This document shows positions 4,899-33,013 of a stretch of DNA of 64,000 nt, one piece after another (within the stretch, counting starts at the first letter, position 1; each line of letters starts with the position of its first letter). The stretch spans positions 1,731,003 through 1,795,002 of the forward strand of contig OZ241357.1 of the NCBI GenBank assembly GCA_965200265.1. Reading direction: 5' to 3'. Under the pieces are notes generated by a model. The model searched no databases. It was not told the origin of the DNA and saw nothing but the letters and a program-made list of their open reading frames with translations. Made by a program: the position numbers and the translations under genes. This stretch comes from Alphaproteobacteria bacterium (GTDB taxonomy: Bacteria > Pseudomonadota > Alphaproteobacteria > UBA2966).

Positions 4899-6434
4899 CT
4901 ACGCGCCGGCCTCGATCCGGCGCCGCGGCGCCAGATTCAGGCATCGCGCGACGGACGCGAGCCGCCTGTCGACGAGTTCGCTGTAAAGGCAGGAGTCCTC
5001 GGGGCGCATGTGGAGCACCGCCTCGCCGGCGGCCCGCTCCAGCCGGGTGCGCGCGAGAACGCCGGGAGCGCCGCCGGAGAGCGTGAGCCCGAGACGGAGC
5101 GCAACCCCGACGAGCTTCGCCCGTTCGGCCGTCGCCAGGTCGACGAGGGTTCGCGCGGGCTCCGTGACCGGCGCGTCGCCGGCGCCGTGATGCCGCGCGT
5201 GAACGGCCAGCGCGACGAACGCGCGCCCGGCGTGATCTATCCCGACGACGGGCGCCCGCAACACCTCCTCGAAGGCCTGCGCCGCGCGGTAGCCGGGGTG
5301 CGCGCGCCAGGCGACGTCGGACAGCAGACAGGCCGCCAGGCGCAACCGGCGGTCTTCCGGGCCTTCCTCCCCGAACAGGGGCGCCATCCACGCCGCCAGT
5401 TCGTCGCCCGTATCCCCGAACCGCGAGGCGCGCGCCGCGAACGCCCGGCACCGGTCGATCAGCGGGTCCGCGGCCCGGACCTCCTCCGGCAGGCGCTCGT
5501 GCAGCAGGCCCTCGCGGAGCCCGCCGGCCAGGAACATGACCCGTCCGGGCCGCAGGCGGCGCAGGACCCGGGAGAGGACGGCGGCGGCGGCGGGGAGCGA
5601 CTCCAGCCGGCGCTGGTTCACGCCCTCGATTCTCGCCAGGGAGTCGGCGCCGAGGCCGGAGATCAGGTCCGCCAGGGCGGCCGCCTCCTCCCGCGCGATC
5701 TCGTACTGGTGGACGATACGCAGCGGATAGTCGCGCCGCGCCATGTGGATGCGCGCCAGCGAGCGCCACGCGCCGCCGACGGCGTAGAAATCCTTCTTCC
5801 GCGCCTTCCCGAGCCAGGCCACCTTGTCGAGGGCGCGGTCGGCGGCGGCGATGCGCTTGCCGGGCGCGAGACCGGTCAGGCGCAGCGCGCCCAGAGGCAG
5901 CGTCACGCCGTCCCCCGCGGCGCCCGACTCCAGCCTCACCAGTTCGAGGCTGCCGCCCCCCAGGTCGCCCATGACGCCATCGGCGCGGGAGAGCGCCGAC
6001 GTGGCGCCCAGGGCCGACAGGCGCGCCTCCTCCGCCCCGGACAGGACGCGCACCTCCAGACCGCAGGCGTCGCGCGCGCGGGCGACGAACGCCGGCCCGT
6101 CGGCCGCCTCGCGCACGGCCGCGGTCGCCACCGCCTCGGGGACGCCGGCGCCGAGCTCCCGCGATAGGGCGACGAACCGCCCGATCGTGGAAAGGGCGAG
6201 GTCGACGCCGCCCGCGTGCAGCGCGCCGGTCTCGGCGAGGTCGCGGCCGATGCCGCACAGGACGCGCTCGTTGAAGACCGGCAGGGGCGCGCGCACCAGG
6301 CCTTCGAAGACGACCAGCCGGACGGAGTTCGACCCGACGTCGATGACGGCCCGCCGCCGCCGCGCGCCGGCGATGCCGGATCGCGGGTGGCGGACGCGGG
6401 CCTCGGGCGCCGGGTCAATCGCCGTCGAGGACAA
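4899..6434 (-). CDS. ppx: Exopolyphosphatase (Ppx/GppA family)
   Basis: N-terminal [16 protein letters not shown] Ppx/GppA signature, about 511 aa. The start may be an internal codon; the gene overlaps the ppk 3' end by 20 nt (operon). Confidence 0.85.
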
Positions 6435-8601
6435 GGTGCGGGTCGGGGGCGGACGTCTCCAGCGCCTTGCCGCGCCCGGAAAGACTGGGATTGGTCATGA
6501 AGTAGGTATGCGCCGAAAACGCCTCGTCGTCCAGTTCCGATCTCGCATAGGTCCCGTCGGGCTGGAGCGTCCAGCTCTGGGCCTTGTCCTTGAAGTTGGC
6601 GACCATGATCTGATCGAGGACCTGCTCGTGAACCGTCGGGTTCTCCAGCGGGGTCAGCAGCTCGACCCGCCAGTCGAAGTTTCTCGGCATCCAGTCGGCG
6701 GACGAGATGAAGACCCGGGCGCCGGGCGACGGCAGGCCGCGGCCGGCGCCGAAGCAGACGATGCGGGAGTGCTCCAGAAAGCGGCCGATCACGCTCTTCA
6801 CGCGGATGTTGTCCGAAAGGCCGGGCACGCCGGGGCGCAGGCAGCAGATGCCGCGCACGACGAGGTCGATCTGCACGCCGGCCCGGCTCGCCCGGTAGAG
6901 GGCGTCGATGATCTTCCCGTCCACCAGGGAGTTCATCTTCGCCCAGATCTCGGCCGGACGGCCCGCCTTGGCGTGGGCTATTTCCCGGTCCACCATGTCG
7001 ATCAGCGTGCCGCGCAGGTTCTGGGGCGAGTTCACGAGCCGCTCCAGATGGCGGGGCGGGGCGGTTCCCGTCATGTAGTTGAAGATGTCGGCGGCATCGC
7101 GGCCGATGGCCGGGTCGGAGGTGAAGAACGAGAGGTCCGTGTACACCCTGGCGGTGACCGGGTGGTAGTTCCCGGTGCCCAGATGCACGTAGGTCTCGAG
7201 GCCGTCCTTCTCGCGCCGGACGACGAGCGAGACCTTGGCGTGCGTCTTCAGCGAGACGAAGCCGTACACGACCTGCACGCCGGCGCGCTCGAGGTTCCGC
7301 GCCCAGCGCAGGTTGGCCTCCTCGTCGAACCGCGCCTTGAGCTCGACCAGGGCGGTCACGGACTTGCCGGATTCGGCCGCGTCGATCAGCGCCGCGACGA
7401 TCGGCGAATCATCGCTGGTGCGATAGAGGGTCTGCTTGACGGCGATCACGTCGGGGTCCGCCGCCGCCTGTTCGACGAACTGCACGACGACGTCGAAGCT
7501 CTCGTAGGGATGATGGACCACGAAGTCCTTCTCCCGGATCGCGGCGAACAGGTTCCCCCCGGCTTCCCTGACGCGCTCCGGGTAGCGCGGACTGTAGGGC
7601 GTGAACAGCAGTTCGGCGCGCTGGCCGAGGATGAGCTCGCTGGTGTCTCCGAGGCCGAGAATCCCGTCGACCACCGTCACCGCGTCATCCGGCGCCCCGA
7701 TCTCCGCGGCGACGAACCGGCGCAGGTCCTCGGGCATTCCCGAATCGACGAACAGCAGCGTCACGCTGCCCCGGCGGCGGCGCTTGATCGCCGATTCGTA
7801 GAACCGGATCAGATCCTCCGATTCGTCCTCGATCTGTATGTCCGAATCGCGCAGGACCCGCACCAGCCCTTCGCCCGCGACGTCGTAGCCGGGGAGGAGC
7901 TGGTCGACGAACATCCGCACGATGTTCTCGAGCGAGAGGAAGCGGGCGGCGTCGCCGGGCAGCCGGAAGAACCGATCGACCTGATGCGACAGCGGGATCA
8001 GGGCCTGCAGCACGTGGCCGTCGCTCCGGCGGGACAGCTGAAGCACCATCGCGAAGCCGCGGTTCGGAAGGAACGGAAAGGGATGGGCCGGGTCGACCGC
8101 GATCGGCGTGAGCACGGGAAACACGCGCTCGAGAAAGAGGCGGCCGATGAACTCCCTGTCCGCGTCCGTCAGATCGGCGGTATCGAGCACGACGATGCCG
8201 GTCTCGCGGAGCCGCTGCCGGAGCGCCGACCAGACGCGCGCCTGGTCGGCCATCAGCCTGTTGGCGCGGGTGTTGATCTCGGTCAGCTGCTCTTCCGGAG
8301 ACAGCCCGTCCTGGCTGAGCTCGTGGACGCCGGCCGCGATCTGGCCGCGGATGCCGGCCACGCGAACGGTGTAGAACTCGTCCAGGTTGACCGCCGAGAT
8401 CGACAGGAACCGGAGCCGCTCCAGCAGCGGGTGGGACGGGTTCTCGGCCTCCTCGAGGACCCGTTCGTTGAACGACAGCCACGACAGCTCGCGGTTGATG
8501 TAGCGCTCGCTCGACCGGAGCGGCGCCTCGTCGCGGCCGTCCCCGCCGGCCGCCGCGTCCCGGTCCGTCGTCTCGCGAGGTCGCGTCTCGGCGATCGTCA
8601 C
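6415..8601 (-). CDS. ppk: Polyphosphate kinase 1
   Basis: [22 protein letters not shown]... and the PPK1 domain series. The likely start is GTG at 8601, preceded by GGAGGAGG. The first ~47 residues of the track ORF (8742..8602) lie over the REP element and are not coding. Confidence 0.9.
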
Positions 8602-8663
8602 GTGGCCTCCTCCGATTTCCCCGCACCGCGCCGGCGGGCGGATGCCCGGCATGGTAGCAGATG

Positions 8664-8763
8664 CGCCGGTGGCCGGTTGCCGGTGGCCGGTGGCCGGTTG
8701 CCAGTGGCCGGTGGCCAGTTGCCAGTGGCCGGCACCGATCACCGGTCACCGGCCACCGGCCAC
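8664..8763. repeat. REP-like 7-mer-array hairpin element
   Basis: ...gccggtggccggttgccggtggccggtggccggttgccagtggccggtggccagttgccagtggccggcaccgatcaccggtcaccggccaccggccactg. Divergent intergenic region between ppk and the FAD monooxygenase. Confidence 0.7.
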
Positions 8764-10022: not shown

Positions 10023-11472
10023 TCACTCGGCGGCGCGGGCGAAGCCTTTCCCGGCGCCGCGCTTCGTCTTCGCCTTCCCGGCCGTCGCCTTCCTGACCAT
10101 CCATTCCGGCTTGCGCGTGGCCTCGGTGCGGACGAACTCCTGCGTCGCCGTGCGCGGATCGGACCAGATTCTCTGCGGCTTTTCCCAGCGGTGGATGCGA
10201 GGCTGCGGCAGCGGAGTCGTGGTATCCACGATCTCGCCGTCCTTCATGACGACGTCGAGACGCTCCTTGTCCTGAAGGACCGTGATGTCGGCCAACGGAT
10301 CGCCGTCGACCACCAGCACGTCGGCGTACTTCCCCTCCTCCAGGGTGCCGATCCTGTCCTCCATGCCGAGCGCGAACGCGGCGTTCCTGGTGCCGGTCTG
10401 GATGGCCTCCATGGCGCTCATGCCGAGCACGTCCTGCATGATCTCGAGTTCGCGGGCGTGCCACTCGCCGTAGGGCACGCTGCTCTGGCCCGAGTCGGAC
10501 CCGGCCATCATCGTCACGCCGGCCCGGTGGGCGCGGGACAGGTTCCTGTGGGCGGCGTCCAGCTCCCGCTTGAGGCCCTCCAGGATCGGCGCGGGACACC
10601 CGAGATCGGGACCCCACTCGACGACGTTGGCGAGCAGGACCAGCGTCGGGTTGATGGGGGTTCCGGTCTCCAGGAAGGCGTCGACGTCCTCCTCCTCGAT
10701 GTACGAGGCGTGAATGATCCAGTCGAACCCCGCCTCGACGGCATCGCGGGCCGCCCGCCGGCCGCGCGCGTGGATGGTGCAGCGCTTGCCGAGAAGGTGG
10801 GTGATCTCCGACACGGCCTTGAGATCGTCGAGCGTCAGGCTGCCGCCCATCCCGCCTTCGCTGCGCAGCACGTCGCCGTCGCCCGAGACCTTGATGACGT
10901 CGACGCTGTCCCGGACCTGCCGGCGCACCTCCTTCACCAGTTCGTCGCGGGTGTTGCACATCACCGAGAACGCGGAAACGGGATGCTCGACCCACGTCGG
11001 GAACACGCTGCCGATGCCGTTGTAGGTCGTGAGGTACTGGGACGCGACCTTCATGCGGGGACCCTCGATCATGCCCGCGTTCACCGCGTCGCGCAGGGCC
11101 GTGGCCACCCGCCAGGTGCCGCCGGGGTCGACCAGGCTGGTGACTCCGGCGCGCAGCACCTTGCGGATGTTGAGCGCGCCGCGCAGGGCCCTGTACTCGC
11201 CCGAGGCGTAGAGGTTGAGCTCCTCGGCCGACGTGACGTCGCCATACGACGTGTGGACGTGCACGTCGATCATGCCCGGCATGACGGTCTTTCCCGTCGC
11301 GTCGATCGTCCGGCAGGCGTTTCCGCACACCTTGGCGGCGTGCGCCTTCACGGCCTCCTCCCTGCCGATCCTGGCGATGCGGCCGTCCTCGATGAACAGG
11401 GCCGTCTTCTTCTTCGGCTTGGAACCGGTCGCATCGAGGACAGATCCGCCGGTGATGAGATAGCGCGTCATG
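10023..11472 (-). CDS. Amidohydrolase-family metal-dependent hydrolase (imidazolonepropionase / prolidase-like fold)
   Basis: MTRYLITGGSVLDATG...MPGMIDVHVH (metal-binding HxH), ...IHASY..., GSDSGQSSVPYGEWHARELE. The start ATG at 11472 was chosen over the track's 11702. The C-terminus is Lys/Arg-rich. Confidence 0.75.
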
Positions 11473-11643
11473 TCACGGGTCCTTCCGTCAATTGCGGCGC
11501 CGGCGGGCGCAACCCGGCGGCGCGGCGTGTTGAACGAACCGGAGGACGGATAGTATACAATCGGAACCGCCGGACGAAACGCCGGCGCGGACGCGGGCCG
11601 GACTCCCCGCGCCGCATTGTTCGAGGGGAAACGGGAGGGCGCG

Positions 11644-12057
11644 ATGCCGGGCGACGGGAAGGTGACGATCGAACTGATGGAAGAGATCAACGCGGCGTTC
11701 AACAGCCGCGATGCGGACCGCGTCGCGTCCTATTTCGCGGAAGACGGCGTCTTCGCCACCGCCCGCGGACCCGACCCCTGGGGCCACCGCGTACAGGGCC
11801 GCGACAACATCCGCGACTTCGTGGCCAGGCGGTTCGAGGTGGTGCCCGACATGAAATGGGAGCACGACTACAAGTACGTGACCGAAAATCGGGCGGTCAC
11901 CGTATGGACCGTCACCGGCAAGAGCGCCGGGGGAGAGACGTTCAACTACCGGGGCTGCGACCTGTACGACTTCAAGGACGGCAAGATCACCTACAAGGAC
12001 ACGTTCTGGAAGATCGTCGACCCCGACGACCTGGGCGGGCTGCCGGCTTCGGAGTAG
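11644..12057 (+). CDS. SnoaL-like / NTF2-fold protein (ketosteroid-isomerase-like)
   Basis: [38 protein letters not shown]... is the typical SnoaL_2 pattern. RBS GGGAGG. Confidence 0.6.
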
Positions 12058-12139
12058 CGGAGTCCGGGCGCCGGTCCCGGCCCCGCGGGATCATGCCTCC
12101 GCCGGCGGGGCGAGCGGGCGGCCCTCCGCGCCCCGGACG

Positions 12140-13405
12140 ATGCGCCCCGATGCTCCCCGGTCGACCGCGCCGGAAAGGCGGCCCGTGCCCGTAACGGTCC
12201 GCGCCGAGCGCTTGTCGAAGGTGTTCGGCGATTCGCCCGGCGCCGCGCTGGACATGCTCGGCGGCGGCGCGTCGAAGGACGAGATACTGCGGGAGACGGG
12301 CAACGTCGTCGCGGTCTCCGAGGCCGGCTTCGACATCGAAGAGGGCGAGATCTTCATGGTCATGGGTTTGTCGGGGTCCGGCAAATCGACGCTCGTCCGC
12401 TGTCTCAACCGCCTCATCGAACCCACCGCCGGCGCCGTGCTCATCGACGGCGAGAACATCCTCGCCGCCGACGAGGGCCGCGTGCGGGAGCTGAGGCGGA
12501 CGAAGATGTCGATGGTGTTCCAGCACTTCGCCCTGTTCCCCCACAAGTCCGTCAGGGAAAACGCGGAGTTCGGGCTCAAGATCCGGGGCGCCGCGCCCGC
12601 CGAGCGGGGCGCGGCGGCGCTGGAGACCCTGCGCCTCGTCGGCCTGGAGGACTGGGCGGAGCACTACCCCGCCAGCCTGAGCGGCGGGATGCAGCAACGG
12701 GTCGGCCTCGCGCGGGCGCTGGCCACGGACCCCGGCATCCTGCTGATGGACGAGGCGTTCAGCGCCCTGGACCCCCTCATCCGGCGGGACATGCAGGACG
12801 AACTGCTCGACCTTCAGCGCAAGGTCCGCAAGACCATCGTCTTCATCACGCACGACTTCCACGAGGCGCTGAAGCTGGGCGACCGCATCGCCATGATGCG
12901 CGACGGAAAGATCGTCCAGATCGGGCCGCCCGAGGAGATCGTCTCCCGGCCCGCCGACGACTACGTCGCCGACTTCACCCGCGACGTCGACCGGGGCCGC
13001 GTCTTCTCCTGCGCCTCGATCATGCGGCAGGTGCCGCCGCTGCGGCTCGGCGAGGACACGCTCGATGACGCCGTGACGCGGATGCGGCGGGAATCCCGCG
13101 ACGCGCTCCACGCGGTCGACGGCGACGGCAGGCCGCGGGGGCTCGCCCGCGCCGGCGCGGTCGCCAGGTCCGTCCAGGCCGGCGAAACGGAGCTCGCCGG
13201 CGCGCTGGTGGACGGGTTCCCGACGACCCCGGAGACCGCGAGGATCGCCGACCTCTACGCGATGTGCGGCGACGGCCTCCCGATCGCGGTCGTGGACTCC
13301 CGCGGCGCCTACGCGGGCGTGCTCATGCCGCTCGACGTCCTGACCAAGCTCACGCCGGACGCGCCGGACGCGCCGGACCCCGGCGCCGCGCGGCCGCGGC
13401 CATGA
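12140..13405 (+). CDS. proV: Glycine betaine/proline-type ABC transporter ATP-binding protein with tandem CBS domains (ProV/OpuAA family)
   Basis: Walker [25 protein letters not shown] signature, Walker [13 protein letters not shown]-terminal CBS region. Confidence 0.85.
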
Positions 13406-14379
13406 ACGACCCTTCCGATCTCTTCCTGCTGCCGCTGGAGGACTGGATACAGACGGCCGTGGAATGGGTGGTCGCCAACTGGCGCCCGGTCTTCCAGGCA
13501 ATCCGCTGGCCCATCTCCTACACGCTCGACGGGCTGGAGGCGGCGCTCCAGGGAATCCCCTACCTCGTGGTCGTGGCCGCGATGTTCGCCGTCGCGTGGC
13601 GCGCCGCCGGCTGGCGCACCGGCGCCTTCAGCCTCGCCGCCATGCTGTTCATCGGGTTCCTGGGCCTGTGGGACAAGGCGATGACGACGCTCGCCATCGT
13701 CTTCACGGCGGTCGTGTTCTGCGTGATCGTCGGCCTGCCGCTCGGAATCCTGGCGGGCAGAAGCGACCGGTTCTGGTCGTGGCTGAGGCCGGTCCTGGAC
13801 GTGATGCAGACCACGCCGTCCTTCGTCTACCTCGTTCCCGTGGTGATGCTGTTCGGCATCGGCACCGTTCCGGGCGTCATCGCCACGATCATATTCTCCC
13901 TGCCGCCGCTCATCCGCCTGACCAACCTGGGGCTCCGGCAGGTGCGGACCGAGGTGGTGGAGGCCGGCCTGGCGTTCGGGTCGACCCGCTGGCAGCTGCT
14001 GAAGGAGGTGCAGTTCCCCCTGGCCCTCCCCACCATCATGGCGGGGCTCAACCAGACGCTTCTGCTGGCGATGGTCATGAGCGTCATCGCCGCCATGATC
14101 GGCGCCGAAGGTCTGGGACTCACCGTGTTGCGGGGGATCGGCAGGCTCGACGTCGGCCTGGCGGCGATCGGCGGCATCAGCATCGCGCTGCTGGCCATCA
14201 TCCTCGACCGGGTGACCCAGGCGCTGGGCCAGGCGCGGCGGGACGGCCCGCCGATCGAGCGCCGGAGCTGGCTGGCGATGGTGTTCGGCTCGCGTCCGCG
14301 GCCCGGCGAAAGCCCGGCGGCGGGCGGGAGCGACTCCTTCCGGGAGCCCTCCGGGCGGTTCTCCAGGGGCGGGGGGTGA
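13402..14379 (+). CDS. proW: Glycine betaine/proline-type ABC transporter permease (ProW/OpuAB family)
   Basis: Multi-TM protein with the EAA-loop region ([39 protein letters not shown]). ATGA start/stop overlap with proV. Confidence 0.85.
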
Positions 14380-14474
14380 GCGGCTTGACTCGCGAAAGGC
14401 GACTCGCGGACAATCCCCTTTCACGATCACGCACCACGCACACACGATCGCACGTGCGAAACGGGGAGGCGGGA

Positions 14475-15503
14475 ATGAACATCAGCCTGCGCAACGTCGG
14501 CATCGTCGCCGGACTCGCATTGTTCGCCCTGGCGGCGCCGGCGGCGGAATCCGCCGCCGCCGAGAAGTCGGCCAAGCCGGCCCGGGCCACCTGGGACACG
14601 TTCTGGTTCGGCGAACGGATTCTGAAGATCGGCCTGGAGCGCCTCGGCTATACCGTCGCGGAGCCGAAGACGCTCAACAACCCGGCGCGCTATCCCGCCG
14701 TCGCGCAAGGCGACGTCGATTACGAGACGGACGCCGTGATCCCGAACGCCAGCGCCTTCATCGAGAAGGTCAAGGCCGACGTCGAACTGGTCGGGCCGCT
14801 CATGAATCCGGGCTCCATCCAGGGTTATCTGATCGACAGGAAGACGGCGGAGGCCCACGGCATAACGAGCCTCGAGGACCTCAAGAAAGACGACGTCCGG
14901 AAGCTCTTCGACGGCGACGGCGACGGCAAGGCGGACCTGATCGGCTGCAATCCCGGCTGGAACTGCGAGAAGTTCATCAACCACCACATCGGCGCCTACG
15001 GGCTGGCCGACCACGTGAAGCACGTGCAGGGCGAGTACAACGTGCTGGTCGGAGATACGGTCGGCCGGTTGAAGCGCGGGGACTCCGTGCTCCTCTACGC
15101 CTGGTATCCGAACACCGCCACCATCCAGATGACGCCGGGCGAGGACCTGGTCTGGATCACGGTGCCCTACACCGACCTTCCGGACGGCGGCAAGGCCGAC
15201 ACGACGCAGGAGGGGCTGAAGTCCTGCGCCGCCGGCGCCGGGGCGTCGTGCAACCTCGGCTGGGCCGCGACCCAGTACTACGTCGCCGCGAACAGGAAGT
15301 GGCTGGCCGCGAACCCCCAGGCCCGGAAGCTGTTCGAGCTGGTCAAGGTCGGCCTCGAGGACCGGGTGACCCAGAACCTGGCCATGAAGAACGGCGAGGA
15401 CTCCGAAGCGGACCTGACGCGCCACGCGGAGCAGTGGATCGCCAACAACAAGGCCGCGTTCGACGGCTGGGTGGAAGAGGCCCGCAAGGCCGGCAGCTAC
15501 TAG
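14475..15503 (+). CDS. proX: Quaternary-amine (betaine-type) ABC transporter substrate-binding protein (ProX/OpuAC family)
   Basis: Signal peptide MNISLRNVGIVAGLALFALAAPAAESA, then an OpuAC-like fold (GCNPGWNCEKFINHHI, YAWYPNTA). Confidence 0.8.
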   Translation: MNISLRNVGIVAGLALFALAAPAAESAAAEKSAKPARATWDTFWFGERILKIGLERLGYTVAEPKTLNNPARYPAVAQGDVDYETDAVIPNASAFIEKVKADVELVGPLMNPGSIQGYLIDRKTAEAHGITSLEDLKKDDVRKLFDGDGDGKADLIGCNPGWNCEKFINHHIGAYGLADHVKHVQGEYNVLVGDTVGRLKRGDSVLLYAWYPNTATIQMTPGEDLVWITVPYTDLPDGGKADTTQEGLKSCAAGAGASCNLGWAATQYYVAANRKWLAANPQARKLFELVKVGLEDRVTQNLAMKNGEDSEADLTRHAEQWIANNKAAFDGWVEEARKAGSY

Positions 15504-15506
15504 CGG

Positions 15507-15540
15507 GCAGCGGGTAGCGGGCCGTTTCGCGCCCGCAACC
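15507..15540 (+). terminator. GC-rich hairpin downstream of proX (GCGGGCcgtttcGCGCCCGC)
   Basis: Inverted repeat immediately after the proX stop codon. There is no T-tract, as is common in high-GC genomes. Confidence 0.35.
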
Positions 15541-15598
15541 CCGTCCGTGGCGGCCGCCTCCCGCGCCGGGACGCCGCAGGCCGAAGGACGTTCGCTTC

Positions 15599-16411
15599 AT
15601 GCCGCTCGAGGAACGGGACATCGAATTCGAGGGGACGACCGTTCACGTCTGGGAGGGCGGAAGCGGCTTCCCGGTCCTGATGCTGCACGGATCGGGGGCC
15701 GGCGCCTCGATCTTCTCCAACTTCGAGCGTGTTCTCGAGCCTCTCGGCGAACGCTACCGGATACTGGCCGCGGACCTCGTCGGCTTCGGCCAATCGGGGC
15801 TGAAGCCGGAGATGCCGTACTTCGACGTCGAGATGTGGCTGCGTCAGGGGCTGCGCCTGGCGGAACTGCTTCCCGACGGGCCGATCGGCGTCATCGGGCA
15901 CTCGCTCTCCGGGGCGTTCGCGCTCAAGCTCGCCGCCCGAACCGGCCGGATCGCCAAGGTCATGGCCACCGGCACCATGGGGGCCAGCTTCGAGGTCCCC
16001 GAGGCGCGCAACCGCGCGTGGACCTACCCGGAAACGGACGAGGCCATCCGCGGCGTCGCCGAGCACATGGTCGTCGACAAGTCGATCGTCACCGACCGTC
16101 ACGTCGCCCACCGCAAGGCGATCCTGACCCGGCCCGGCTATCGCGAGTACTTCAGGGCGATGTTCGAGAAGGACCGGCAGCATTTCGTCGACGCCTCGGC
16201 CGTGACCCCGGACGAACTCTCCCGGATCGGCTGCGACGTCCTGTTCGTGCACGGCCGGCAGGACGCGTCGTTCCCGCCGGACAAGACGACGCTGGTCCTC
16301 GCCCGGGCGATCCCGACTTCCGACGTCGTCCTGCTGTCCCGGTGCGGGCACAACGTCGCCTACGAACAGCCCGCGAAATTCCTGCGCGCCTGCGAGATGC
16401 TCTTTGGATAG
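15599..16411 (+). CDS. Alpha/beta-fold hydrolase (meta-cleavage-product hydrolase / MhpC-BphD-like)
   Basis: Nucleophile elbow GHSLSG, LMLHGSGAGAS oxyanion region, C-terminal catalytic His (CGHNVAYEQP). Confidence 0.8.
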   Translation: MPLEERDIEFEGTTVHVWEGGSGFPVLMLHGSGAGASIFSNFERVLEPLGERYRILAADLVGFGQSGLKPEMPYFDVEMWLRQGLRLAELLPDGPIGVIGHSLSGAFALKLAARTGRIAKVMATGTMGASFEVPEARNRAWTYPETDEAIRGVAEHMVVDKSIVTDRHVAHRKAILTRPGYREYFRAMFEKDRQHFVDASAVTPDELSRIGCDVLFVHGRQDASFPPDKTTLVLARAIPTSDVVLLSRCGHNVAYEQPAKFLRACEMLFG

Positions 16412-16441: not shown

Positions 16442-17644
16442 ATGACCCGGCACGCGGAGATCGCCGGCGCCGGCTTCTCCGGCCTCGCGATGGCCGCCGC
16501 GCTGGCCCGGCGCGGGTGGTCGGTGCGCGTCCACGAGCGGTCTGCCGAGGTGCGGGCGTTCGGCGCCGGGATCTGGACGTGGGAGAACGGCGTCCGCGCG
16601 CTCGCCAGCATCGAGGCCGCCGACGACGCCTTCGCCGACTGCATCCCGCCGCCCCGATACCTCGAACGGGACGCCGGGCAGCGCATCATCCGGTCGCTGC
16701 CCTTCCCGCCGCCACGCAGCGCCAGCGGCGTCCGCATGTTCTGCATCACGCGGCAGCAGCTCCTCATGGCCATTCACGGCGCGGCGATGCGGGCGGGGGT
16801 GGAGGTCGCCGTCAATTCCGAGGTCGTTTCCGCGCGGCCCGAAGGCGCACTCGAAACCGCCGACGGAAGGACCTTGCGGGCGGACCTCGTCGTCGGCGCG
16901 GACGGGGTCAATTCCCGGGTCCGCGATTCCCTCGGCCTGCTGCGAAGCCGCCGCCGGCACGCGGACGGGGGGATCCGGGTGCTGGTGGCGCACGAGGGAG
17001 GCTACGGCGACACCGAGGAAGGGAGCCTGCTGCGCTCGTGGTGGAGCGGCCGGCGGCGGTTGCTGTACACGCCGTGCACGAGCGACGTCTTCTACATGTG
17101 CTTCACGGGACGGGCGCGGGACGGCCAAGCGTCGCGGGTTCCCCTGCACAAGGAGTCGTGGATCCGCCATTTCCCGTTCATGGAATCGATGATCGACCGC
17201 GTGGGCGAGGAGCAGCGCTACGACGTCTTCGAAACGGTGAAGTCCAAGCGCTGGCGCGCCGGCCGGGCGGCGATCATCGGCGACGCCGGCCACGCCATGG
17301 TTCCGGGGCTCGGCCAGGGGTGCGGCATGGCCATCTGCAACGCCCTGTCGCTGGCCGGCCATCTGGCCGATCACCGGGACGTCGAGCGCGCGCTCGACGA
17401 ATGGGAAACGCGCTGGCGCCCGATCACGGAGCACGCCCAGCTCTGGTCCCGGATCAGCTGGCCGCTGACGCAGATCCCGGTCGGCGTCGCCCGCTGGGCC
17501 TTCCGGACTCCGGCGGTTCACGACTGGGTGGCGGCCCAGCGCAGCAAGCCTTCCCGCGTCATGCCCCACGGCAGCGAGAACGACCCGCGCTGGCTCCCGC
17601 GGGACGCGGCCGCGCCGATCGCAACGCCGGGCGGGAAGCCATGA
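16442..17644 (+). CDS. FAD-dependent aromatic-ring monooxygenase, paralogue of 8888..9982
   Basis: MTRHAEIAGAGFSGLAMAAALARRGWSVRVHE..., DLVVGADGVNSRVR, GDAGHAMVPGLGQGCGMAICNA. The N-terminal 30 aa are nearly identical to the paralogue. Confidence 0.85.
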   Translation: MTRHAEIAGAGFSGLAMAAALARRGWSVRVHERSAEVRAFGAGIWTWENGVRALASIEAADDAFADCIPPPRYLERDAGQRIIRSLPFPPPRSASGVRMFCITRQQLLMAIHGAAMRAGVEVAVNSEVVSARPEGALETADGRTLRADLVVGADGVNSRVRDSLGLLRSRRRHADGGIRVLVAHEGGYGDTEEGSLLRSWWSGRRRLLYTPCTSDVFYMCFTGRARDGQASRVPLHKESWIRHFPFMESMIDRVGEEQRYDVFETVKSKRWRAGRAAIIGDAGHAMVPGLGQGCGMAICNALSLAGHLADHRDVERALDEWETRWRPITEHAQLWSRISWPLTQIPVGVARWAFRTPAVHDWVAAQRSKPSRVMPHGSENDPRWLPRDAAAPIATPGGKP

Positions 17645-19191
17645 AGAAAACGCCGCTGTTCGACATCCATGTGGCGTCGGCGAGACGCATGGTCAACCTC
17701 AAGGGCTTCGCCCGCCCCGTCGAGTACGCGGGCCACGCCGAGGAGCACCGGGCCATCCGGGAACGGGTCAGCCTGTGCGACGTGTCCCACATGGGCGAGA
17801 TCGAAATCAGCGGTCCGGACGCGCCGGCGCTGGTGGACAGGCTGATCACGAACGACGCCGCCCGCCTCGACGCGGGCCAGGCCCTCTACACCGTCATGTG
17901 CGATGAACGCGGCCACGTCATCGACGATCTGGTCTGCCTCCGCCTGGCGGAAGACCGGTTCCTCTGGGTCGTCAACGTCACCAGGACCGACGAGGACCAT
18001 CGCTGGGTCCTGAAGCACGCCCAGGGCCTCGATACGCACGTCCGCGACCGGTCGGCGGAACTCGCCCTCCTCGCCCTCCAGGGGCCGTATTCGAGCGAGG
18101 TCCTGCAAAAGGTCGTCGCGGCCGACCTTTCGGGAATGGCCTACTACCGGCTGGCGGAAACCACCGTCACGACCGACGAGACGGAGGCCCCCTGCATCGT
18201 CAGCCGCACCGGATACACCGGCGAACGGGGATACGAGATCTGCGTTTCCCGGGACTTCGCCCCGTCCGTGTGGCGGGCGCTGATGCGCGCCGGGCGTCCC
18301 CTGGGCATCGCGCCGCACGGGGTCGCCGCCCGCGAGAGCGCGCGCACCGAAGCCGGCTACCTGCTCAACGGCAACGACATCGACGACCGGACCTACCCCC
18401 ACGAGGTCGGTCTCGGCTGGGTGGTGAAGCCGCACAAGGACTTCATCGGGCGCGACGCGCTGGCCGCCGTCGCCGAAGGGGGAGCGCCGCGGAAGCTGGT
18501 GGGGCTGGAGATGGCGGGACGGGTCACGATCCGCCACGGATACCCCGTCTTCAGGGACGGCGAGCGGATCGGGCGGGTCACGAGCGGCCCGCTGTCTCCC
18601 GACCTGGTGGGCGGCGCCGCGAGCCTGGGGCTGGGATTGGTCGCCAGCGCCCACGCCGGGGACGGCGGCGTCCTCCAGATCGGCGTGCGCGGCGCGCGCC
18701 ACGATGCGCGAATCGTCCCCTACCCCTTCCGGGAACGGCGGGTGCGCGACGACGCCAGGGTGGACACCCTGTCTCCCTGCGGGCTGCGCTACGGCGAGGA
18801 TCATTTGTGGGTCGGGGCGGAGTCCGACGGCCGGGCCACGATCGGGCTCACCGACTTCGGACAGCGGTATCTGGGGGAAGCGCTGTCGGCGGTGCTGCCG
18901 GTGCCGGGCGACCGCATCGTGCGGGGATCGCCGTTCGGCTGGCTCGACGCCTACCGCAGGCCCTTCGACCTGATCGCGCCGGTGTCGGGGACGGTCGTGG
19001 CGGTGAACGCGGCCGCGGTCGAACGACCGGGCGACGTCAACCGCTATCCCTACGCGCGCGACGGCCTGATCCGGATCGAACCCGACGATGCCGGGGAGAT
19101 CCCGGCGCTCGCCGGGTTCGCCGCCTACACCGAGACCACGCGCCGGCTCGAGCGCTACGACTCCTGGTCCCGGGACCTCAGGCTGACCTGA
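17641..19191 (+). CDS. gcvT: Aminomethyltransferase (GcvT-type, folate-dependent) fused to a C-terminal GcvH-like domain that lacks the lipoyl-lysine
   Basis: The N-terminal ~360 aa align closely with GcvT (TPLFDIHVASARRMVNLKGF...CDVSHMGEIEISG..., GYTGERGYEI). The C-terminal ~150 aa align with the genome's own GcvH (LRYGEDHLWV..GLTDFGQRYLGE..), but ESVKAAS is replaced by LDAYRRP, so there is no lipoylatable Lys. Start overlaps the preceding stop (ATGA). Confidence 0.8.
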   Translation: MKKTPLFDIHVASARRMVNLKGFARPVEYAGHAEEHRAIRERVSLCDVSHMGEIEISGPDAPALVDRLITNDAARLDAGQALYTVMCDERGHVIDDLVCLRLAEDRFLWVVNVTRTDEDHRWVLKHAQGLDTHVRDRSAELALLALQGPYSSEVLQKVVAADLSGMAYYRLAETTVTTDETEAPCIVSRTGYTGERGYEICVSRDFAPSVWRALMRAGRPLGIAPHGVAARESARTEAGYLLNGNDIDDRTYPHEVGLGWVVKPHKDFIGRDALAAVAEGGAPRKLVGLEMAGRVTIRHGYPVFRDGERIGRVTSGPLSPDLVGGAASLGLGLVASAHAGDGGVLQIGVRGARHDARIVPYPFRERRVRDDARVDTLSPCGLRYGEDHLWVGAESDGRATIGLTDFGQRYLGEALSAVLPVPGDRIVRGSPFGWLDAYRRPFDLIAPVSGTVVAVNAAAVERPGDVNRYPYARDGLIRIEPDDAGEIPALAGFAAYTETTRRLERYDSWSRDLRLT

Positions 19192-19248
19192 ACGTCCATC
19201 TGTTCTCCCCTCGGGGCGCCACTCGGACCTTCGCGAGACACGGCCGAG

Positions 19249-19760
19249 GGTGTGCAAGGTGTGCAATTCGACGCACCGGGTCCGCCCTCCATACGGTGTG
19301 CAAGGTGTGCCATTCCGGGCGCGATCCGGACCTCCGCGGAATGCGCCCGACGGTGTGCAAGCTGTGCAATTCGACGCGCCGGGTCCGCCCTCCATACGGT
19401 GTGCAAGCTGTGCCATTCCGGGTACGGCCCGGACCTCCGCAGGATGCGCCCCACGGTGTGCAAGGTGTGCAAGTCGGCGCGCCGGGCACACCCCCCATAC
19501 GGTGTGCAATGTGTGCCATTCCGGGCGCGGCCCGGACTTCCGCGAGATGCGCCCGACGGTGTGCAAGGTGTGCAAGTCGGCGCACCGTGCCGCGACTGGC
19601 GACTGGCGACTGGCGACTGGCCACCGGCGACCGACCTTAGTGTGCAACGTGTGCCATTCCGGGCGCGGCCCAGACTTCCGCGGAATGCGCCCCCACGGTG
19701 TGCAAGGTGTGCAAGTCGGCGCGCCGCGTCCCGCTCGCCGTTCCCGGCGCCGGGCGGGTT
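19249..19760. repeat. Composite tandem repeat array (about 104-bp dimer unit, roughly 4.5 copies). Each half-unit begins GGTGTGCAAGGTGTGC(A/C)A. Unit B carries the hairpin CATTCCG...CGGAATG.
   Basis: Read directly. Half-units start near 19249, 19295, 19352, 19399, 19455, 19501, 19558, 19639 and 19698. It sits in the convergent intergenic region between the gcvT fusion (+) and the SDR gene (-). Confidence 0.8.
19589..19636. repeat. GCGACTG heptamer microsatellite / REP-like insertion inside the tandem-repeat array
   Basis: gccgcgactggcgactggcgactggcgactggccaccggcgaccgacc shows the same 7-mer logic as the other REP-like elements. Confidence 0.6.
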
Positions 19761-19781: not shown

Positions 19782-20561
19782 TCAGAACAGCGCCGGATTC
19801 AGCCCGCCGTCCAGCAGAATGCTCTGGGCCGTGATGTAGCCCGCCCTGTCGCCGCACAGGAACGCGCAGGCTTCGCCGAATTCCTCCGGCGCGCCGAACC
19901 GGCCGACCGGGATGCGCGCGATCCGGCGCTCCGCGGCCGCTTCCGGACTCACCCCCTCGCGCCTGGCGACGGCCTCGGTCGTGGCGCGAAGGCGATCGGT
20001 AAGGATCTCTCCGGGAAGCAGGTTGTTGATCGTCACGTTGTGCCGGGCGACTTCACGGGCGATGGTGCCGACCGCGCCCGTGAGGCCCGCCCTCGCGCCG
20101 TTCGACAGCACCAGGATGTCGACGGGCGCCTTCACGGAACCGGACGTGACGTTGACGATGCGGCCCCATCGGCGCGCGATCATGCCGTCGACCGTCGCCT
20201 GGATCAGGGCGATGGCCGTCAGCATGTTGGCGTCCAGCGCCGCGATCCAGTCCTCGCGCGTGAAATCCCGAAAGTTGCCGGGCGGCGGACCTCCGGCGTT
20301 GTTGATCAGGATGTCCGGCTCGGGACACGCGCCCAGCGCCGCCTCGCGCCCTTCCTCGGTCGTGACGTCGCCGACGACGGCCGTGACCTGCGCCGCCGTC
20401 GCGGCCCGGATCTCCGCGGCGGTCGCCTCGACGGTTTCCGGGGTGCGGCCGGTGACGGTCACGTCGACGCCTTCCCGCGCCAGCGAGAACGCGCAGGCCC
20501 TGCCGAGGCCGCGACTCGAGGCGCACACGAGCGCCTTCCTTCCCGCGATACCGAGATCCAT
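19782..20561 (-). CDS. SDR-family oxidoreductase (3-oxoacyl-ACP reductase-like)
   Basis: N-terminal GRKALVCASSRGLGRA (TGxxxGxG), the NNAG motif, and the classical SDR active-site region. Confidence 0.85.
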   Translation of the reverse strand: MDLGIAGRKALVCASSRGLGRACAFSLAREGVDVTVTGRTPETVEATAAEIRAATAAQVTAVVGDVTTEEGREAALGACPEPDILINNAGGPPPGNFRDFTREDWIAALDANMLTAIALIQATVDGMIARRWGRIVNVTSGSVKAPVDILVLSNGARAGLTGAVGTIAREVARHNVTINNLLPGEILTDRLRATTEAVARREGVSPEAAAERRIARIPVGRFGAPEEFGEACAFLCGDRAGYITAQSILLDGGLNPALF

Positions 20562-26235: not shown

Positions 26236-26313
26236 GAACGGCCGTCCTGTCGAAGCGGCGAATGGCGCGCCTTATAGCCGGAGCCCGGCGGCGCCGCAAC
26301 CGGCCCTGGGAGC

Positions 26314-26393: not shown

Positions 26394-26411
26394 AAAGCCC
26401 GGCGCTCCCGG

Positions 26412-29309
<2,898 letters not shown>

Positions 29310-29338
29310 CTTCCTTCTCCCTCGCAGGCGAACGCGCG

Positions 29339-29728
29339 TCACGGCCCGGATCGGTCCGGGTCCTTCACGAACGCCGCGTACTGGTCCGCGTCCATCAGCC
29401 CGTCGAGCTCGCCGGGGTCGCTGATCCTGATCTTGACGAACCAGCCGCTTCCCTCGGCGTCCCGGTTGACCTGCGCCGGGTCGTCGCCGAGGGCCTCGTT
29501 GACCTCGACGATCTCGCCGCTCACGGGGGCGTAGACCTCGCTGGCGGCCTTGACCGACTCCACGACCGCCGCCTCGGCGCCCTTCGAGACCGACTCGCCG
29601 ATTCCGGGAAGGTCGACGTAGACCACGTCGCCGAGTTGCTCCTGCGCGTAATCGCTGACCCCGACGGTCGCCACCTCGCCCTCGAGGCGGATCCATTCGT
29701 GGTCCCTGGTGTATCTGAGATCGCTCAT
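29339..29728 (-). CDS. gcvH: Glycine cleavage system H protein (lipoyl carrier)
   Basis: [41 protein letters not shown]...[21 protein letters not shown], with the lipoyl-Lys present. Confidence 0.95.
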
Positions 29729-29884: not shown

Positions 29885-30140
29885 ATGGCGACCTCGCGAC
29901 AGGGCTCTCCGCCGATGCAGCGGAGCCTGCCCCCTCTGTCGCTGGACCTGAGAGATTGACCGGCGCGCATCGGGCCACGCGGACCCTGCCGGTTTTCCCC
30001 TTCGGTGGAAGCCGCGCCGGCATCCGCCGCGACTCCGCTTTCCAGAGCGCCGTCCCCCCGCGGTCCTTTCGCCTGAGAGTTTCCGGGGCGGTTGCTCCTT
30101 CGGCGCCGGCTCCCGGAGGAACCGGCCTCTCCCGCGGGGA
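29885..30140 (-). ncRNA. Glycine riboswitch (tandem aptamers) in the gcvH-gcvP leader
   Basis: Reverse complement reads ...CGGGAGAGgccggttcctccgggagccggcgCCGAAGGAGCAAccgccccggaaaCTCTCAGGCGAAAGGACcg (aptamer 1), then CTCTGGAAAGcgg...CCACCGAAGGGGAAAAccgg...CTCTCAGGtccagcGACAGAGG (aptamer 2). This matches the conserved glycine-riboswitch cores. Confidence 0.8.
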
Positions 30141-30228
30141 TCGTCCGGCTGTAGCCGCGATGATAGGCGGCGCCCAGCCCCTGTCAACCGCCGGACGCGG
30201 CGGCCGGGGCCACCCTCGTCACCGGCCG

Positions 30229-33008: not shown

Positions 33009-33013
33009 CGGCC

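What the first reader, a model, noticed from the sequence alone, without database searches (positions are those of the whole stretch)
17641..19191. GcvT aminomethyltransferase fused to a lipoyl-lysine-less GcvH-like domain, encoded away from gcvHP
The N-terminal 360 aa are a close GcvT homolog (TPLFDIHVASARRMVNLKGF...DVSHMGEIEISG). The C-terminal 150 aa align residue-for-residue with the organism's own GcvH (29339-29728). The lipoylation motif ESVKAAS is replaced by LDAYRRP, and this domain contains essentially no lysine, so it cannot carry the aminomethyl-lipoyl arm. The riboswitch-controlled gcv operon at 29.3-30.1 kb is gcvH-gcvP only, with no gcvT. This fusion may therefore be the cell's only T-protein, with a built-in decoy or docking H-domain. 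Alternatively it is a dedicated folate-dependent demethylase of the catabolic island it sits in.
Basis: partly seen in the sequence, partly recalled or inferred. Interest (0 to 1): 0.65.

Follow-up and report, generated by a model that had tools for sequence, protein, structure and literature searches.

The report
GcvT fused to lysine-less GcvH domain
This gene encodes a glycine-cleavage T-protein permanently fused to an H-protein-like domain that has lost its lipoyl-lysine; it belongs to a widespread, conserved and apparently unstudied enzyme family, and in this bacterial lineage the normal gcvT gene has vanished from the glycine-cleavage operon.

Summary
ORF 17641-19191 (+) encodes 516 aa: GCV_T, GCV_T_C, an 18-aa linker, a GCV_H-like domain and a conserved 16-aa tail. 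The H-like domain has Arg where the lipoyl-lysine should be.

It is not a one-off. More than 119 protein clusters share this architecture, from Alpha- and Betaproteobacteria, Methylomirabilota and Firmicutes. The lipoyl column is R in 116, H in 3 and never K, inside a new conserved motif W-x-D-x-Y-R-[RK]-x-F-D. The aminomethyl-cavity residues of real H-proteins are also replaced.

The T module passes curated GcvT thresholds and keeps the catalytic residues. About ten otherwise invariant GcvT positions have changed, several in the H-interacting N-terminal arm.

The evidence on function conflicts:
- In the window's lineage, gcvT is cleanly missing from a conserved riboswitch-gcvT-gcvH-gcvP operon. 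gcvH and gcvP stay intact, which suggests displacement by the fusion.
- Thermanaeromonas sp. C210 carries the fusion plus a complete canonical gcvT-H-PA-PB operon.
- The fusion is not linked to gcvH or gcvP in any of 25 other loci.

The flanking catabolic cassette is a variable insertion, not the gene's conserved context.

Verdict: a new variant of a known kind. Whether it serves lipoyl-GcvH or a free C1 donor is unresolved.

The parts
17641..19191 (+). Whole fusion ORF, 516 aa plus stop. The start ATG overlaps the stop of the upstream monooxygenase gene (ATGA).
   Evidence: The N-terminus MK(K/H)TPL is conserved in homologues.
17659..18423 (+). GCV_T folate-binding domain (residues 7-261). 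Keeps Y83, D96, N112, E199 and R231. Family-specific changes are L20, R25, H32, C46, W109, V228, A229, E232, S233 and N243.
18490..18729 (+). GCV_T_C barrel domain (residues 284-363), including invariant R298. By my recollection this corresponds to E. coli/human mature R292.
18730..18783 (+). 18-residue linker (residues 364-381). T376, S378 and P379 are conserved. Modelled with pLDDT above 90.
18784..19140 (+). GcvH-like domain H' (residues 382-500). It has the H-protein fold but no carrier features.
   Evidence: PF01597, 72.8 bits. (below the GcvH equivalog cutoffs). (1htp, TMt 0.90, rmsd 1.7 A)..
18940..18969 (+). Hairpin motif WLDAYRRPFD, which replaces the lipoylation motif. R439 (18955-18957) sits at the lipoyl-lysine position.
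19141..19188 (+). Conserved C-terminal tail (residues 501-516). Y506 and W509 are invariant; R514 and the terminal T516 are nearly invariant. The last 5 residues have low pLDDT.
16442..17644 (+). FAD-dependent monooxygenase, the last gene of the variable cassette. It is translationally coupled to the fusion in this window.
10023..16411 (.). Variable catabolic and transport cassette (limits are stop-to-stop ORFs). It holds an amidohydrolase (10023-11729, -), a SnoaL-like gene (11554-12057, +), an ABC ATPase (11882-13405, +), a permease (13069-14379, +), a ProX-type betaine-binding protein (about 14421-15503, +) and an alpha/beta hydrolase (15599-16411, +).
   Evidence: ProX equivalog, 351.7 against a 215 cutoff. 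Present only in the window and L011.
6415..8745 (-). ppk (polyphosphate kinase). This is the conserved upstream neighbour of the fusion in the alphaproteobacterial lineage.
19782..20561 (-). SDR gene, the conserved convergent downstream neighbour. It is followed by hda, an AI-2E transporter, a CDP-OH transferase, DUF2066, purM, purN and ndk.
29339..29728 (-). Canonical stand-alone gcvH with intact DHEW and [16 protein letters not shown] motifs.
26412..29309 (-). gcvP (965 aa).
29934..30144 (-). Tandem glycine riboswitch upstream of gcvH. No gcvT lies between it and gcvH.

Best explanation
The gene encodes a self-contained 'T-H prime' enzyme that descends from an adjacent gcvT-gcvH gene pair.

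Proposed mechanism:
- The T module is a catalytically competent, tetrahydrofolate-dependent C1 (aminomethyl/methylene) transferase that produces 5,10-methylene-THF.
- The fused H' domain is no longer a carrier. It is a permanently docked structural and specificity module.
- H' sits where a real H-protein would dock, against T domains 1 and 3.
- It presents a conserved Tyr-Arg-[Arg/Lys] hairpin tip to the active-site funnel in place of the lipoyl-lysine arm.
- The enzyme therefore probably takes its C1 unit from a free donor, possibly an anionic one, and not from lipoyl-GcvH. The donor has not been identified.

Shown here:
- the domain architecture;
- loss of the lysine and of the aminomethyl cavity;
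- the new conserved hairpin motif;
- retention of the T catalytic and folate-site residues;
- a remodelled N-terminal arm in the T module;
- a confident rigid two-module model;
- variable, often folate- or catabolism-linked gene neighbourhoods;
- coexistence with a full canonical glycine cleavage system in one genome.

Inferred, not shown:
- the docking site of H';
- the exclusion of real GcvH;
- the nature of the donor;
- the product.

This reading is only slightly ahead of the rival that the fusion is this lineage's replacement T-protein.
For: 1. H' has lost every carrier feature, yet it is under selection for something new.
- The lipoyl column is R in 116 clusters, H in 3 and K in 0 of 119.
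- D436 is present in 118 of 119 and Y438 in all 119; W434 and F442 are strongly conserved.
- The E. coli H cavity residues E14, S67 and Y70, which hold the aminomethyl group (PMC7733448), are replaced by V/L, F and V/I. D68 is kept.

2. The conserved parts of H' are the parts that touch T in the native complex.
- The most conserved H' elements are helix alpha-1 (D405, F406, Q408, R409, L411, G412) and the hairpin/beta-7 region.
- These are the H elements that T domains 1 and 3 act on (PMC7733448).
- The linker is only 18 aa and leaves directly from T domain 3.

3. The AF2 model has pLDDT 89.9 and pTM 0.89, with linker and hairpin above 90. This indicates a fixed inter-module interface.

4. Positions that are 80-100% conserved in 46 canonical GcvTs are changed and then frozen in the fusion family.
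- The changes are F20L, M25R, I32H, F46C, L109W, L228V, G229A, D232E, T233S and Y243N.
- Several lie in the N-terminal region, which is described as essential for the T-H interaction (PMC7733448).

5. Thermanaeromonas sp. C210 has the fusion in an IS66-flanked module of MFS transporter, fusion and carbamoylase. It also has a complete gcvT-gcvH-gcvPA-gcvPB-lplA operon.

6. None of 25 other fusion loci has gcvH or gcvP within 10 kb. None of 16 loci scanned has a glycine riboswitch.

7. Neighbours recur from folate and C1 metabolism or catabolism.
- FolD is immediately adjacent in L022 and L024.
- L024 also has a DMGDH-like oxidase.
- Amidohydrolases or M20 hydrolases with transporters occur in L001, L020, L023 and the window.
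- RidA occurs in L005 and L016.
Against: - The T module passes the curated GcvT equivalog thresholds (TIGR00528 301 against 235.85; NF001567 364 against 300) and keeps all core catalytic and folate residues. Nothing in the sequence forbids ordinary T activity.
- In the window's lineage gcvT has been cleanly deleted from the conserved riboswitch-gcvT-gcvH-gcvP operon, while gcvH and gcvP remain intact and conserved. That pattern is hard to explain unless some T activity exists, and the fusion is the only candidate seen.
- The docking site of H' could not be read from the model, because no coordinates are returned.
- No substrate is identified, and the neighbourhoods are heterogeneous. Many of them plausibly yield glycine.
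Confidence: 0.4

Rival explanations
1. Xenologous displacement. [quoted passage not shown] The lysine-less H' is a built-in stabiliser or docking module that binds somewhere other than the lipoyl-arm entrance, for example near the opening for the folate tail, or that swings away. After the lineage acquired this Thermotoga/Firmicutes-type gene, the native gcvT was lost from the operon.
For: - All four members with GcvP at least 74% identical (the window, L078, L079, L081) have riboswitch-gcvH-gcvP. L080 and L082 (68-69% identical) have gcvT in the same syntenic slot.
- L078 and the fusion locus L012 lie on the same 3,666,911-bp chromosome.
- GcvH keeps every canonical motif and is 73-90% identical within the gcvT-less clade.
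- The fusion is a core syntenic gene in the order ppk / fusion / SDR-hda...purMN-ndk.
- The T module passes the GcvT equivalog cutoffs and keeps the catalytic residues.
- The native alpha-type GcvT is only 36% identical to the T module, while T. maritima GcvT matches at E 7e-87. This is consistent with horizontal replacement.
- Many neighbouring genes could feed glycine: a ProX-type betaine binding protein, a DMGDH-like oxidase, and carbamoylase or N-acyl-amino-acid amidohydrolases.
Against: - A covalently tethered H mimic at the native site would compete with real GcvH.
- The hairpin tip is invariant, which argues that it is buried in an interface or active site.
- The H-interacting N-terminal arm and other universal GcvT invariants are altered.
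- The fusion coexists with a full canonical glycine cleavage system in Thermanaeromonas.
- It is never linked to gcvH or gcvP elsewhere and has no glycine riboswitch.
- A relocated canonical gcvT in these genomes has not been excluded.
Confidence: 0.35
2. Dedicated folate-dependent demethylase of the adjacent cassette (betaine-type ABC importer, hydrolases, FAD monooxygenase). The monooxygenase or a hydrolase would generate an N-methyl or iminium intermediate, and the T module would capture its C1 unit.
For: - The start codon overlaps the monooxygenase stop (ATGA), so in this window the gene is co-transcribed with the cassette.
- The cassette's binding protein is a ProX equivalog.
- L024 places the fusion after a DMGDH-like oxidase, a hydrolase and FolD.
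Against: - The cassette is present only in the window and L011. L012 has ppk directly upstream, L013 only SnoaL, and L014 and L008 have other small genes.
- The fusion is conserved in more than 119 clusters across phyla with unrelated neighbours.
- HMM scores for DmdA, LigM and DesA are far below their cutoffs.
Confidence: 0.08
3. Non-catalytic or regulatory protein. The T fold would be used for folate sensing or Fe-S repair, as in YgfZ and Iba57, and the H-like domain would act as an interaction module. A canonical gcvT would lie elsewhere in the genome.
For: - T-fold proteins with THF-independent roles exist; Iba57 and YgfZ appear among the structural matches.
- Lysine-less H-like domains occur in many other architectures.
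Against: - All core GcvT catalytic and folate residues are invariant (D96, N112, E199, R231, R298).
- The folate-binding domain shows 75% mean pairwise identity across phyla.
- FolD adjacency in two lineages suggests a real methylene-THF product.
Confidence: 0.07

Closest known systems
Glycine cleavage T-protein (GcvT/AMT), Thermotoga maritima and Bacillus subtilis type (PDB 1WOO, 1YX2)
   Same: - About 42-45% identity over residues 1-369, E 7e-87.
- Same three-domain fold, TMt 0.91.
- Passes TIGR00528 and NF001567.
- The catalytic Asp and the folate-site residues are conserved.
   Different: - Carries a C-terminal H-like domain and a conserved tail.
- About ten positions that are invariant in canonical GcvT are replaced, including the F-x-G-W-x-M-P arm and FDVSHMG changing to CDVSHMG.
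- Not linked to gcvH or gcvP and has no glycine riboswitch.
E. coli T-protein:H-protein complex (PDB 3A8I/3A8J/3A8K)
   Same: The fusion covalently joins the two partners of this non-covalent complex. The H elements that contact T (alpha-1 and the hairpin/beta-7) are the most conserved parts of H'.
   Different: There is no lipoyl-lysine arm: an Arg occupies its position. Whether H' occupies the same site could not be measured here.
Glycine cleavage H-protein (GcvH, PF01597/TIGR00527)
   Same: - Same fold (1htp, TMt 0.90, rmsd 1.7 A).
- 31% identity to the window's own GcvH.
- Retains the H-x-W, D-F-x-Q, LG(D/E), PVSG and N..P-Y motifs.
   Different: - The lipoyl Lys is Arg.
- The cavity residues E14, S67 and Y70 are hydrophobic.
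- It scores below the NCBIfam GcvH cutoffs.
- It is fused, not free.
Lysine-less GcvH-like proteins (NCBIfam TIGR03077 'not_gcvH') and other H-like domains lacking the lysine
   Same: These also have the H-protein fold without the lipoyl-lysine. Such domains turn up in several unrelated architectures (P0246, P0247, P0253, P0264).
   Different: - The score against TIGR03077 is 24.4 against a 144 cutoff.
- The D-x-Y-R-[RK] motif and the fusion to GcvT are specific to this family.
GcvT-fold enzymes that capture C1 units from non-H-protein donors: DmdA, LigM/DesA, DMGDH/DMGO, SoxA and TMAO demethylase Tdm
   Same: They share the THF-binding T fold. They set the precedent that the fold can take C1 units from small molecules or from a fused partner domain.
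   Different: - All score well below their family cutoffs.
- The partner here is an H-protein relic, not an oxidase or demethylase domain.
- The T module is much closer to true GcvT than to any of these.

Membership tests
GcvT (glycine cleavage system aminomethyltransferase) | Sequence scores above the curated family thresholds (TIGR00528 equivalog, NF001567). | tested here: met
   TIGR00528 scores 301.1 against 235.85 and NF001567 scores 364 against 300. The alphaproteobacterial model NF010093 fails at 254.2 against 459.
GcvT (glycine cleavage system aminomethyltransferase) | Three-domain cloverleaf T fold. | tested here: met
   AF2 model with pLDDT 89.9. Foldseek matches 1WOO, 1WOS and 1YX2 with TMt 0.91-0.92.
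GcvT (glycine cleavage system aminomethyltransferase) | Catalytic Asp and folate-site residues (Tm D96, N112, E195/E199, R227/R231; Ec R292). The roles of these residues are from my own knowledge of the T-protein structures. | tested here: met
   D96, N112, E199, R231 and R298 are invariant in 119 family members and shared with 46 canonical GcvTs.
GcvT (glycine cleavage system aminomethyltransferase) | Canonical N-terminal arm and other universal invariants (F-x-G-W-x-M-P, FDVSHMG, GARD, LYG). | tested here: not met
   F20L, M25R, I32H, F46C, D232E and Y243N are fixed in the fusion family, while the canonical residues are 91-100% conserved in 46 canonical GcvTs.
GcvT (glycine cleavage system aminomethyltransferase) | Uses aminomethyl-lipoyl-H-protein as the C1 donor. 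| not testable with these tools
   This needs an enzyme assay or genetic complementation. The indirect evidence conflicts.
GcvT (glycine cleavage system aminomethyltransferase) | Genomic association with gcvH or gcvP, or glycine-responsive control. This is typical of the family but not strictly defining. | tested here: not met
   No gcvH or gcvP lies within 10 kb in the other fusion loci. No glycine riboswitch was found in 16 loci. In the window gcvHP lies 7 kb away on the opposite strand.
GcvH (glycine cleavage H-protein) | H-protein fold and a Pfam PF01597 match. | tested here: met
   PF01597 scores 72.8 bits against 22.2. 1htp matches with TMt 0.90 and rmsd 1.7 A.
GcvH (glycine cleavage H-protein) | Lipoyl-lysine at the tip of the hairpin (E-S-V-K-A). 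| tested here: not met
   R439 occupies this position in the window. Across the family the column is R in 116, H in 3 and K in 0 of 119.
GcvH (glycine cleavage H-protein) | Aminomethyl-protecting cavity residues (Ec E12, E14, S67, Y70; PMC7733448). | tested here: not met
   E14 is V/L, S67 is F and Y70 is V/I. The E12 column is variable. D68 is kept.
GcvH (glycine cleavage H-protein) | Curated NCBIfam thresholds (TIGR00527, NF002270). | tested here: not met
   72.9 against 115.85 and 77.7 against 117.
THF-dependent small-molecule demethylases (DmdA, LigM, DesA) | Family HMM score above the cutoff. | tested here: not met
   DmdA scores 150.8 against 410, LigM 69.8 against 580 and DesA 77.7 against 800.
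Oxidase-linked T-domain enzymes (DMGDH/DMGO, SoxA, Tdm) | T domain fused to, or complexed with, an FAD or other substrate-oxidising domain. | tested here: not met
   No such domain is present in the 516-aa protein. SoxA scores 181 against 1164 and Tdm 251 against 1100.
TIGR03077 'not_gcvH' lysine-less H-like proteins | Family HMM score above the cutoff. | tested here: not met
   24.4 against 144.05.

The most novel reading that the evidence does not exclude
The family is an H-protein-independent aminomethyltransferase of the glycine-cleavage type. The swinging lipoyl arm has been replaced by a fixed Tyr-Arg-[Arg/Lys] pseudo-lipoyl hairpin on a permanently docked H relic. This converts the T-H complex into a single-chain enzyme that moves a methylene or aminomethyl unit from a free, so far unknown donor onto tetrahydrofolate. 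Candidate donors are an S-CH2-N or O3S-CH2-N type compound, or a formaldehyde adduct. That would be a new catalytic activity in one-carbon metabolism, currently hidden under the annotation 'GcvT'.
Probability: 0.35. Interest if true: 0.75.

Novelty: new variant of a known kind. Interest (0 to 1): 0.55.

Why it matters
The glycine cleavage system is the textbook case of a swinging-arm carrier (H) that shuttles between enzymes. This is a natural, widespread and strongly conserved protein in which the T enzyme is welded to an H domain that can no longer carry anything.

There are two possible outcomes, and both matter.
- If the fusion still serves lipoyl-GcvH, it shows that T can work with a second, non-carrier H bound. 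It would also document a clean xenologous displacement of gcvT inside a riboswitch-controlled operon.
- If it does not, it defines a new THF-dependent C1-transfer activity, and hundreds of 'GcvT' annotations are wrong.

Either outcome bears on metabolic reconstructions of glycine and one-carbon flux in uncultured Alpha- and Betaproteobacteria, and on engineering of the reductive glycine pathway. The question can be settled with standard assays.

Tried and rejected
- **Artefact check.** I asked whether the fusion was an assembly or frameshift artefact. Rejected: more than 119 independent clusters have the same length and domains.
- **More distant fusions.** I asked whether the 'fusions' at 36-45% identity in the genome scan (Moorella, Halanaerobiales and others) were real. 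They are not: they are ordinary adjacent gcvT and gcvH genes joined by tblastn. The same holds for all plasmid hits.
- **Glycine riboswitch upstream of the fusion.** None was found in 16 loci.
- **gcvT remnants.** None was found in the gap of the gcvT-less operons or elsewhere in the window.
- **Neighbour clustering.** All-against-all ORF clustering of neighbours was too noisy in these high-G+C loci because of shadow ORFs. I replaced it with targeted tblastn and Pfam/NCBIfam scans.
- **Docking geometry of H'.** The structure tool returns no coordinates and there is no single-chain T-H entry in the PDB, so I could not superpose the model on 3A8I.
- **Unavailable resources.** The primary paper on the ET-EH complex (JBC 2010) is not held, so its residue-level statements rest on my memory and on PMC7733448.
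- **Literature.** Searches for a T-H fusion found nothing.
- **Second gcvT in the window's lineage.** A direct genome-wide search was not possible with the capped tools. I used the last homologue search on the Thermanaeromonas co-occurrence test instead, and it was conclusive.
- **Lipoylation of the neighbouring K440.** I considered whether the Lys at position 440, present in 49 of 119 members, could be lipoylated. Rejected as a family feature because it is Arg in 69 members, including the window.

Full report
**1. The observation**

ORF 17641-19191 (+) encodes 516 aa. Pfam finds three domains:
- GCV_T at residues 7-261 (E 6.6e-84);
- GCV_T_C at residues 284-363;
- GCV_H at residues 382-500 (E 2.9e-20).

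The C-terminal part aligns with the window's own GcvH (29339-29728, -) at 31% identity over 124 residues with a single gap, E 4e-19. The lipoylation motif VESVKAAS faces LDAYRRPF, so R439 occupies the lipoyl-lysine position. Residues 364-516 have no lysine and 21 arginines.

A tandem glycine riboswitch at 29934-30144 (-) directly precedes gcvH and gcvP (26412-29309), with no gcvT between them. The start ATG overlaps the stop of the upstream FAD-monooxygenase gene as ATGA.

**2. It is a family, not an accident**

A search of 5.8 billion proteins returned more than 120 clusters. All are about 516 aa, have the same three Pfam domains and are 54-98% identical to the window's protein. Public names, where given, say only 'GcvT' or 'aminomethyltransferase'.

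The family occurs in uncultured Alphaproteobacteria, Burkholderiales and other Betaproteobacteria, Hyphomicrobiales, Filomicrobium, Methylomirabilota, a Desulfosporosinus MAG and Thermanaeromonas sp. C210.

Weaker 'fusions' at 36-45% identity in the genome scan and on plasmids are ordinary adjacent gcvT and gcvH genes. This shows what the fusion descends from.

The T module is closest to the Thermotoga/Bacillus type of GcvT (1WOO, E 7e-87). It is only 36% identical to the native alphaproteobacterial GcvT of a sister lineage. It passes TIGR00528 and NF001567 but fails the alphaproteobacterial model NF010093.

**3. The H-like domain is a conserved non-carrier**

In 119 aligned members the lipoyl column is R in 116, H in 3 and never K. 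It sits inside a new, strongly conserved motif W-x-D-[STA]-Y-R-[RK]-x-F-D.

E. coli H residues E12, E14, S67, D68 and Y70 hold and release the aminomethyl group (PMC7733448). In the fusion family E14 is V/L, S67 is F and Y70 is V/I. The E12 column is variable, and only D68 is kept. The window's real GcvH keeps all of these residues.

H' fails the curated GcvH thresholds but has the H fold (1htp, TMt 0.90, rmsd 1.7 A). It evolves faster than the folate-binding domain (51% against 75% mean pairwise identity), yet 20 of its 119 columns are at least 95% conserved. These cluster in helix alpha-1 and the hairpin/beta-7, which are the elements that T domains 1 and 3 act on in the native complex.

Lysine-less H-like domains exist in other architectures too. 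The fusion to GcvT and this motif are specific to the family.

**4. The T module is competent but altered**

D96, N112, E199, R231 and R298 and many other residues are shared with 46 canonical GcvTs. Positions that are 80-100% conserved in those canonical proteins are replaced and then frozen in the fusion family: I18, L20, R25, H32, C46, W109, V228, A229, E232, S233 and N243.

Several of these lie in the N-terminal region, which the literature describes as essential for the interaction with H-protein.

The AF2 model is confident (pLDDT 89.9, pTM 0.89), with linker and hairpin above 90. This implies a fixed interface between the two modules. Residues 17-28 and 512-516 have low confidence. The tool returns no coordinates, so I could not measure where H' docks.

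**5. Genomic context in the window's lineage**

In six related loci the conserved order is ppk(-) / fusion(+) / SDR(-), hda, AI-2E transporter, CDP-OH transferase, DUF2066, purM, purN, ndk.

The 'catabolic island' comprises an amidohydrolase, a SnoaL-like gene, a ProVWX-type importer whose binding protein is a ProX equivalog, an alpha/beta hydrolase and an FAD monooxygenase. It lies between ppk and the fusion only in the window and L011.
- L012 has ppk directly upstream of the fusion.
- L013 has only the SnoaL gene between them.
- L014 and L008 have other small genes there.

The fusion is therefore a core gene beside a variable slot, not a component of the island. In this window it is nevertheless co-transcribed with the island.

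**6. Evidence that it replaced gcvT**

The gcvP neighbourhoods of relatives show one conserved synteny: lytB, zf-CDGSH, a hypothetical gene, the riboswitch, the gcv genes and then the atp genes.
- L080 and L082 (GcvP 68-69% identical to the window's) have riboswitch-gcvT-gcvH-gcvP.
- L078 (91%), L079 (79%) and L081 (74%), like the window, have riboswitch-gcvH-gcvP.
- In the gcvT-less operons no trace of gcvT remains.

L078 lies on the same 3,666,911-bp chromosome as fusion locus L012. GcvH and GcvP remain intact and conserved in the gcvT-less clade, so some T activity must exist there.

**7. Evidence that the family is not simply 'the' T-protein**

- Thermanaeromonas sp. C210 (GCA_013167955.1) carries the fusion on contig BLWF01000003.1, in an IS66-flanked module of MFS transporter, fusion and carbamoylase-family amidase.
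- The same genome has a complete canonical gcvT-gcvH-gcvPA-gcvPB-lplA operon on contig BLWF01000001.1.
- No other fusion locus has gcvH or gcvP within 10 kb.
- None of 16 loci scanned has a glycine riboswitch.

Contexts elsewhere vary:
- FolD is immediately adjacent in L022 and L024. L024 also has a DMGDH-like oxidase and a hydrolase.
- L020 has an amidohydrolase and an MFS transporter.
- L023 has a cytosine-deaminase-like amidohydrolase.
- L005 and L016 have RidA.
- In about ten betaproteobacterial loci there is a divergent histidine kinase with a sigma-54 regulator, followed by panB, a cNMP-binding protein, TauE and a short GCV_T protein.

**8. Weighing the two readings**

Two readings remain close.

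I rank first, at about 0.40, a self-contained T-H' enzyme. In this reading the H relic sits at the native H site, caps the funnel with a Tyr-Arg-[Arg/Lys] tip and adapts the T module to a donor that is not bound to H-protein. Methylene-THF would be the product, which fits the adjacency of FolD.

I rank second, at about 0.35, xenologous displacement: the fusion is this lineage's T-protein and works with free lipoyl-GcvH. The gcvT deletion is the strongest single fact for this rival. Against it stand the invariant hairpin tip, the remodelled H-binding arm, the coexistence with a full glycine cleavage system and the lack of any gcv linkage.

A role dedicated to the cassette (about 0.08) and a non-catalytic role (about 0.07) are unlikely.

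**9. Novelty**

I found no paper that describes a GcvT-GcvH fusion or this motif, and no solved single-chain T-H structure. The parts are well known. The arrangement, the conserved replacement of the swinging arm and the apparent displacement of gcvT are not. I class it as a new variant of a known kind, of moderate to high interest, and decidable with a genome search, one structural superposition and standard T-protein assays.

Noticed in passing
window 30229-31425 and 31557-37695 (-): A CRISPR array of about 16-17 repeats of about 36 nt (CCTTCAACGTCACCTCGGCGCTTGGCCGAGGGATAC, period about 72). Next to it are the cas genes Cas_GSU0054 (31557-33617), Cas_GSU0053 (33014-34588) and a Cas3 helicase (34981-37695), a type I-U/I-G-like set. 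The locus sits between the gcvH riboswitch and lytB, where relatives have zf-CDGSH and a hypothetical gene.
   Followed up: partly
window 19211-19733: The intergenic space between the convergent fusion and SDR genes holds an array of composite direct repeats. Units of 43-53 nt alternate with a 103-nt period and share the core GGTGTGCAAGGTGTGCAA/CC. No inverted repeat was reported. Their function is unknown.
   Followed up: partly
window 25813-30144, compared with L078-L082: In relatives gcvHP is followed by the atpF/atpE/atpB genes and lies about 2 Mb from the fusion. In this window gcvP abuts ndk instead, so a rearrangement has brought the gcvT-less gcvHP operon to within 7 kb of the fusion gene.
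   Followed up: partly
L001 200-2531 and 13480-15811: In Thermanaeromonas sp. C210, IS66-family element copies (TnpB_IS66 plus DDE_Tnp_IS66) lie on both flanks of the MFS-fusion-carbamoylase region. Further transposase genes and a CRISPR array lie nearby. This looks like a mobile composite unit.
   Followed up: no
L002 4656-9975, L003 5569-9890, L004 1968-9732 and about seven other betaproteobacterial loci: A conserved cluster lies divergent from the fusion: a histidine kinase, a response regulator (with a sigma-54 activator domain in L002 and L004), panB (just above the TIGR00222 cutoff), a cNMP-binding protein, a TauE-family permease and a short (about 300 aa) GCV_T-family protein that fails the GcvT cutoffs.
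   Followed up: partly
P0247 (1391 aa), found with the H' query: A protein with three tandem lysine-less GcvH-like domains. Its C-terminal part looks by eye like an FAD-linked oxidase with cysteine-rich Fe-S motifs; I did not scan it. Tandem double lysine-less H-like proteins also exist (P0246, P0253, P0264, P0289).
   Followed up: no
L024 5635-9960: In a Hyphomicrobiales MAG the fusion is the last gene of a run: an 834-aa DAO-FAO_M-GCV_T-GCV_T_C oxidase (DMGDH/sarcosine-dehydrogenase type), an alpha/beta hydrolase and FolD. Two different T-fold proteins therefore sit in one apparent operon.
   Followed up: partly
window 3-4898 (-) and 57924-63998 (-): Two very long ORFs (about 1632 and 2025 codons) have coding-like GC3 and run to the window ends. 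I did not examine them.
   Followed up: no
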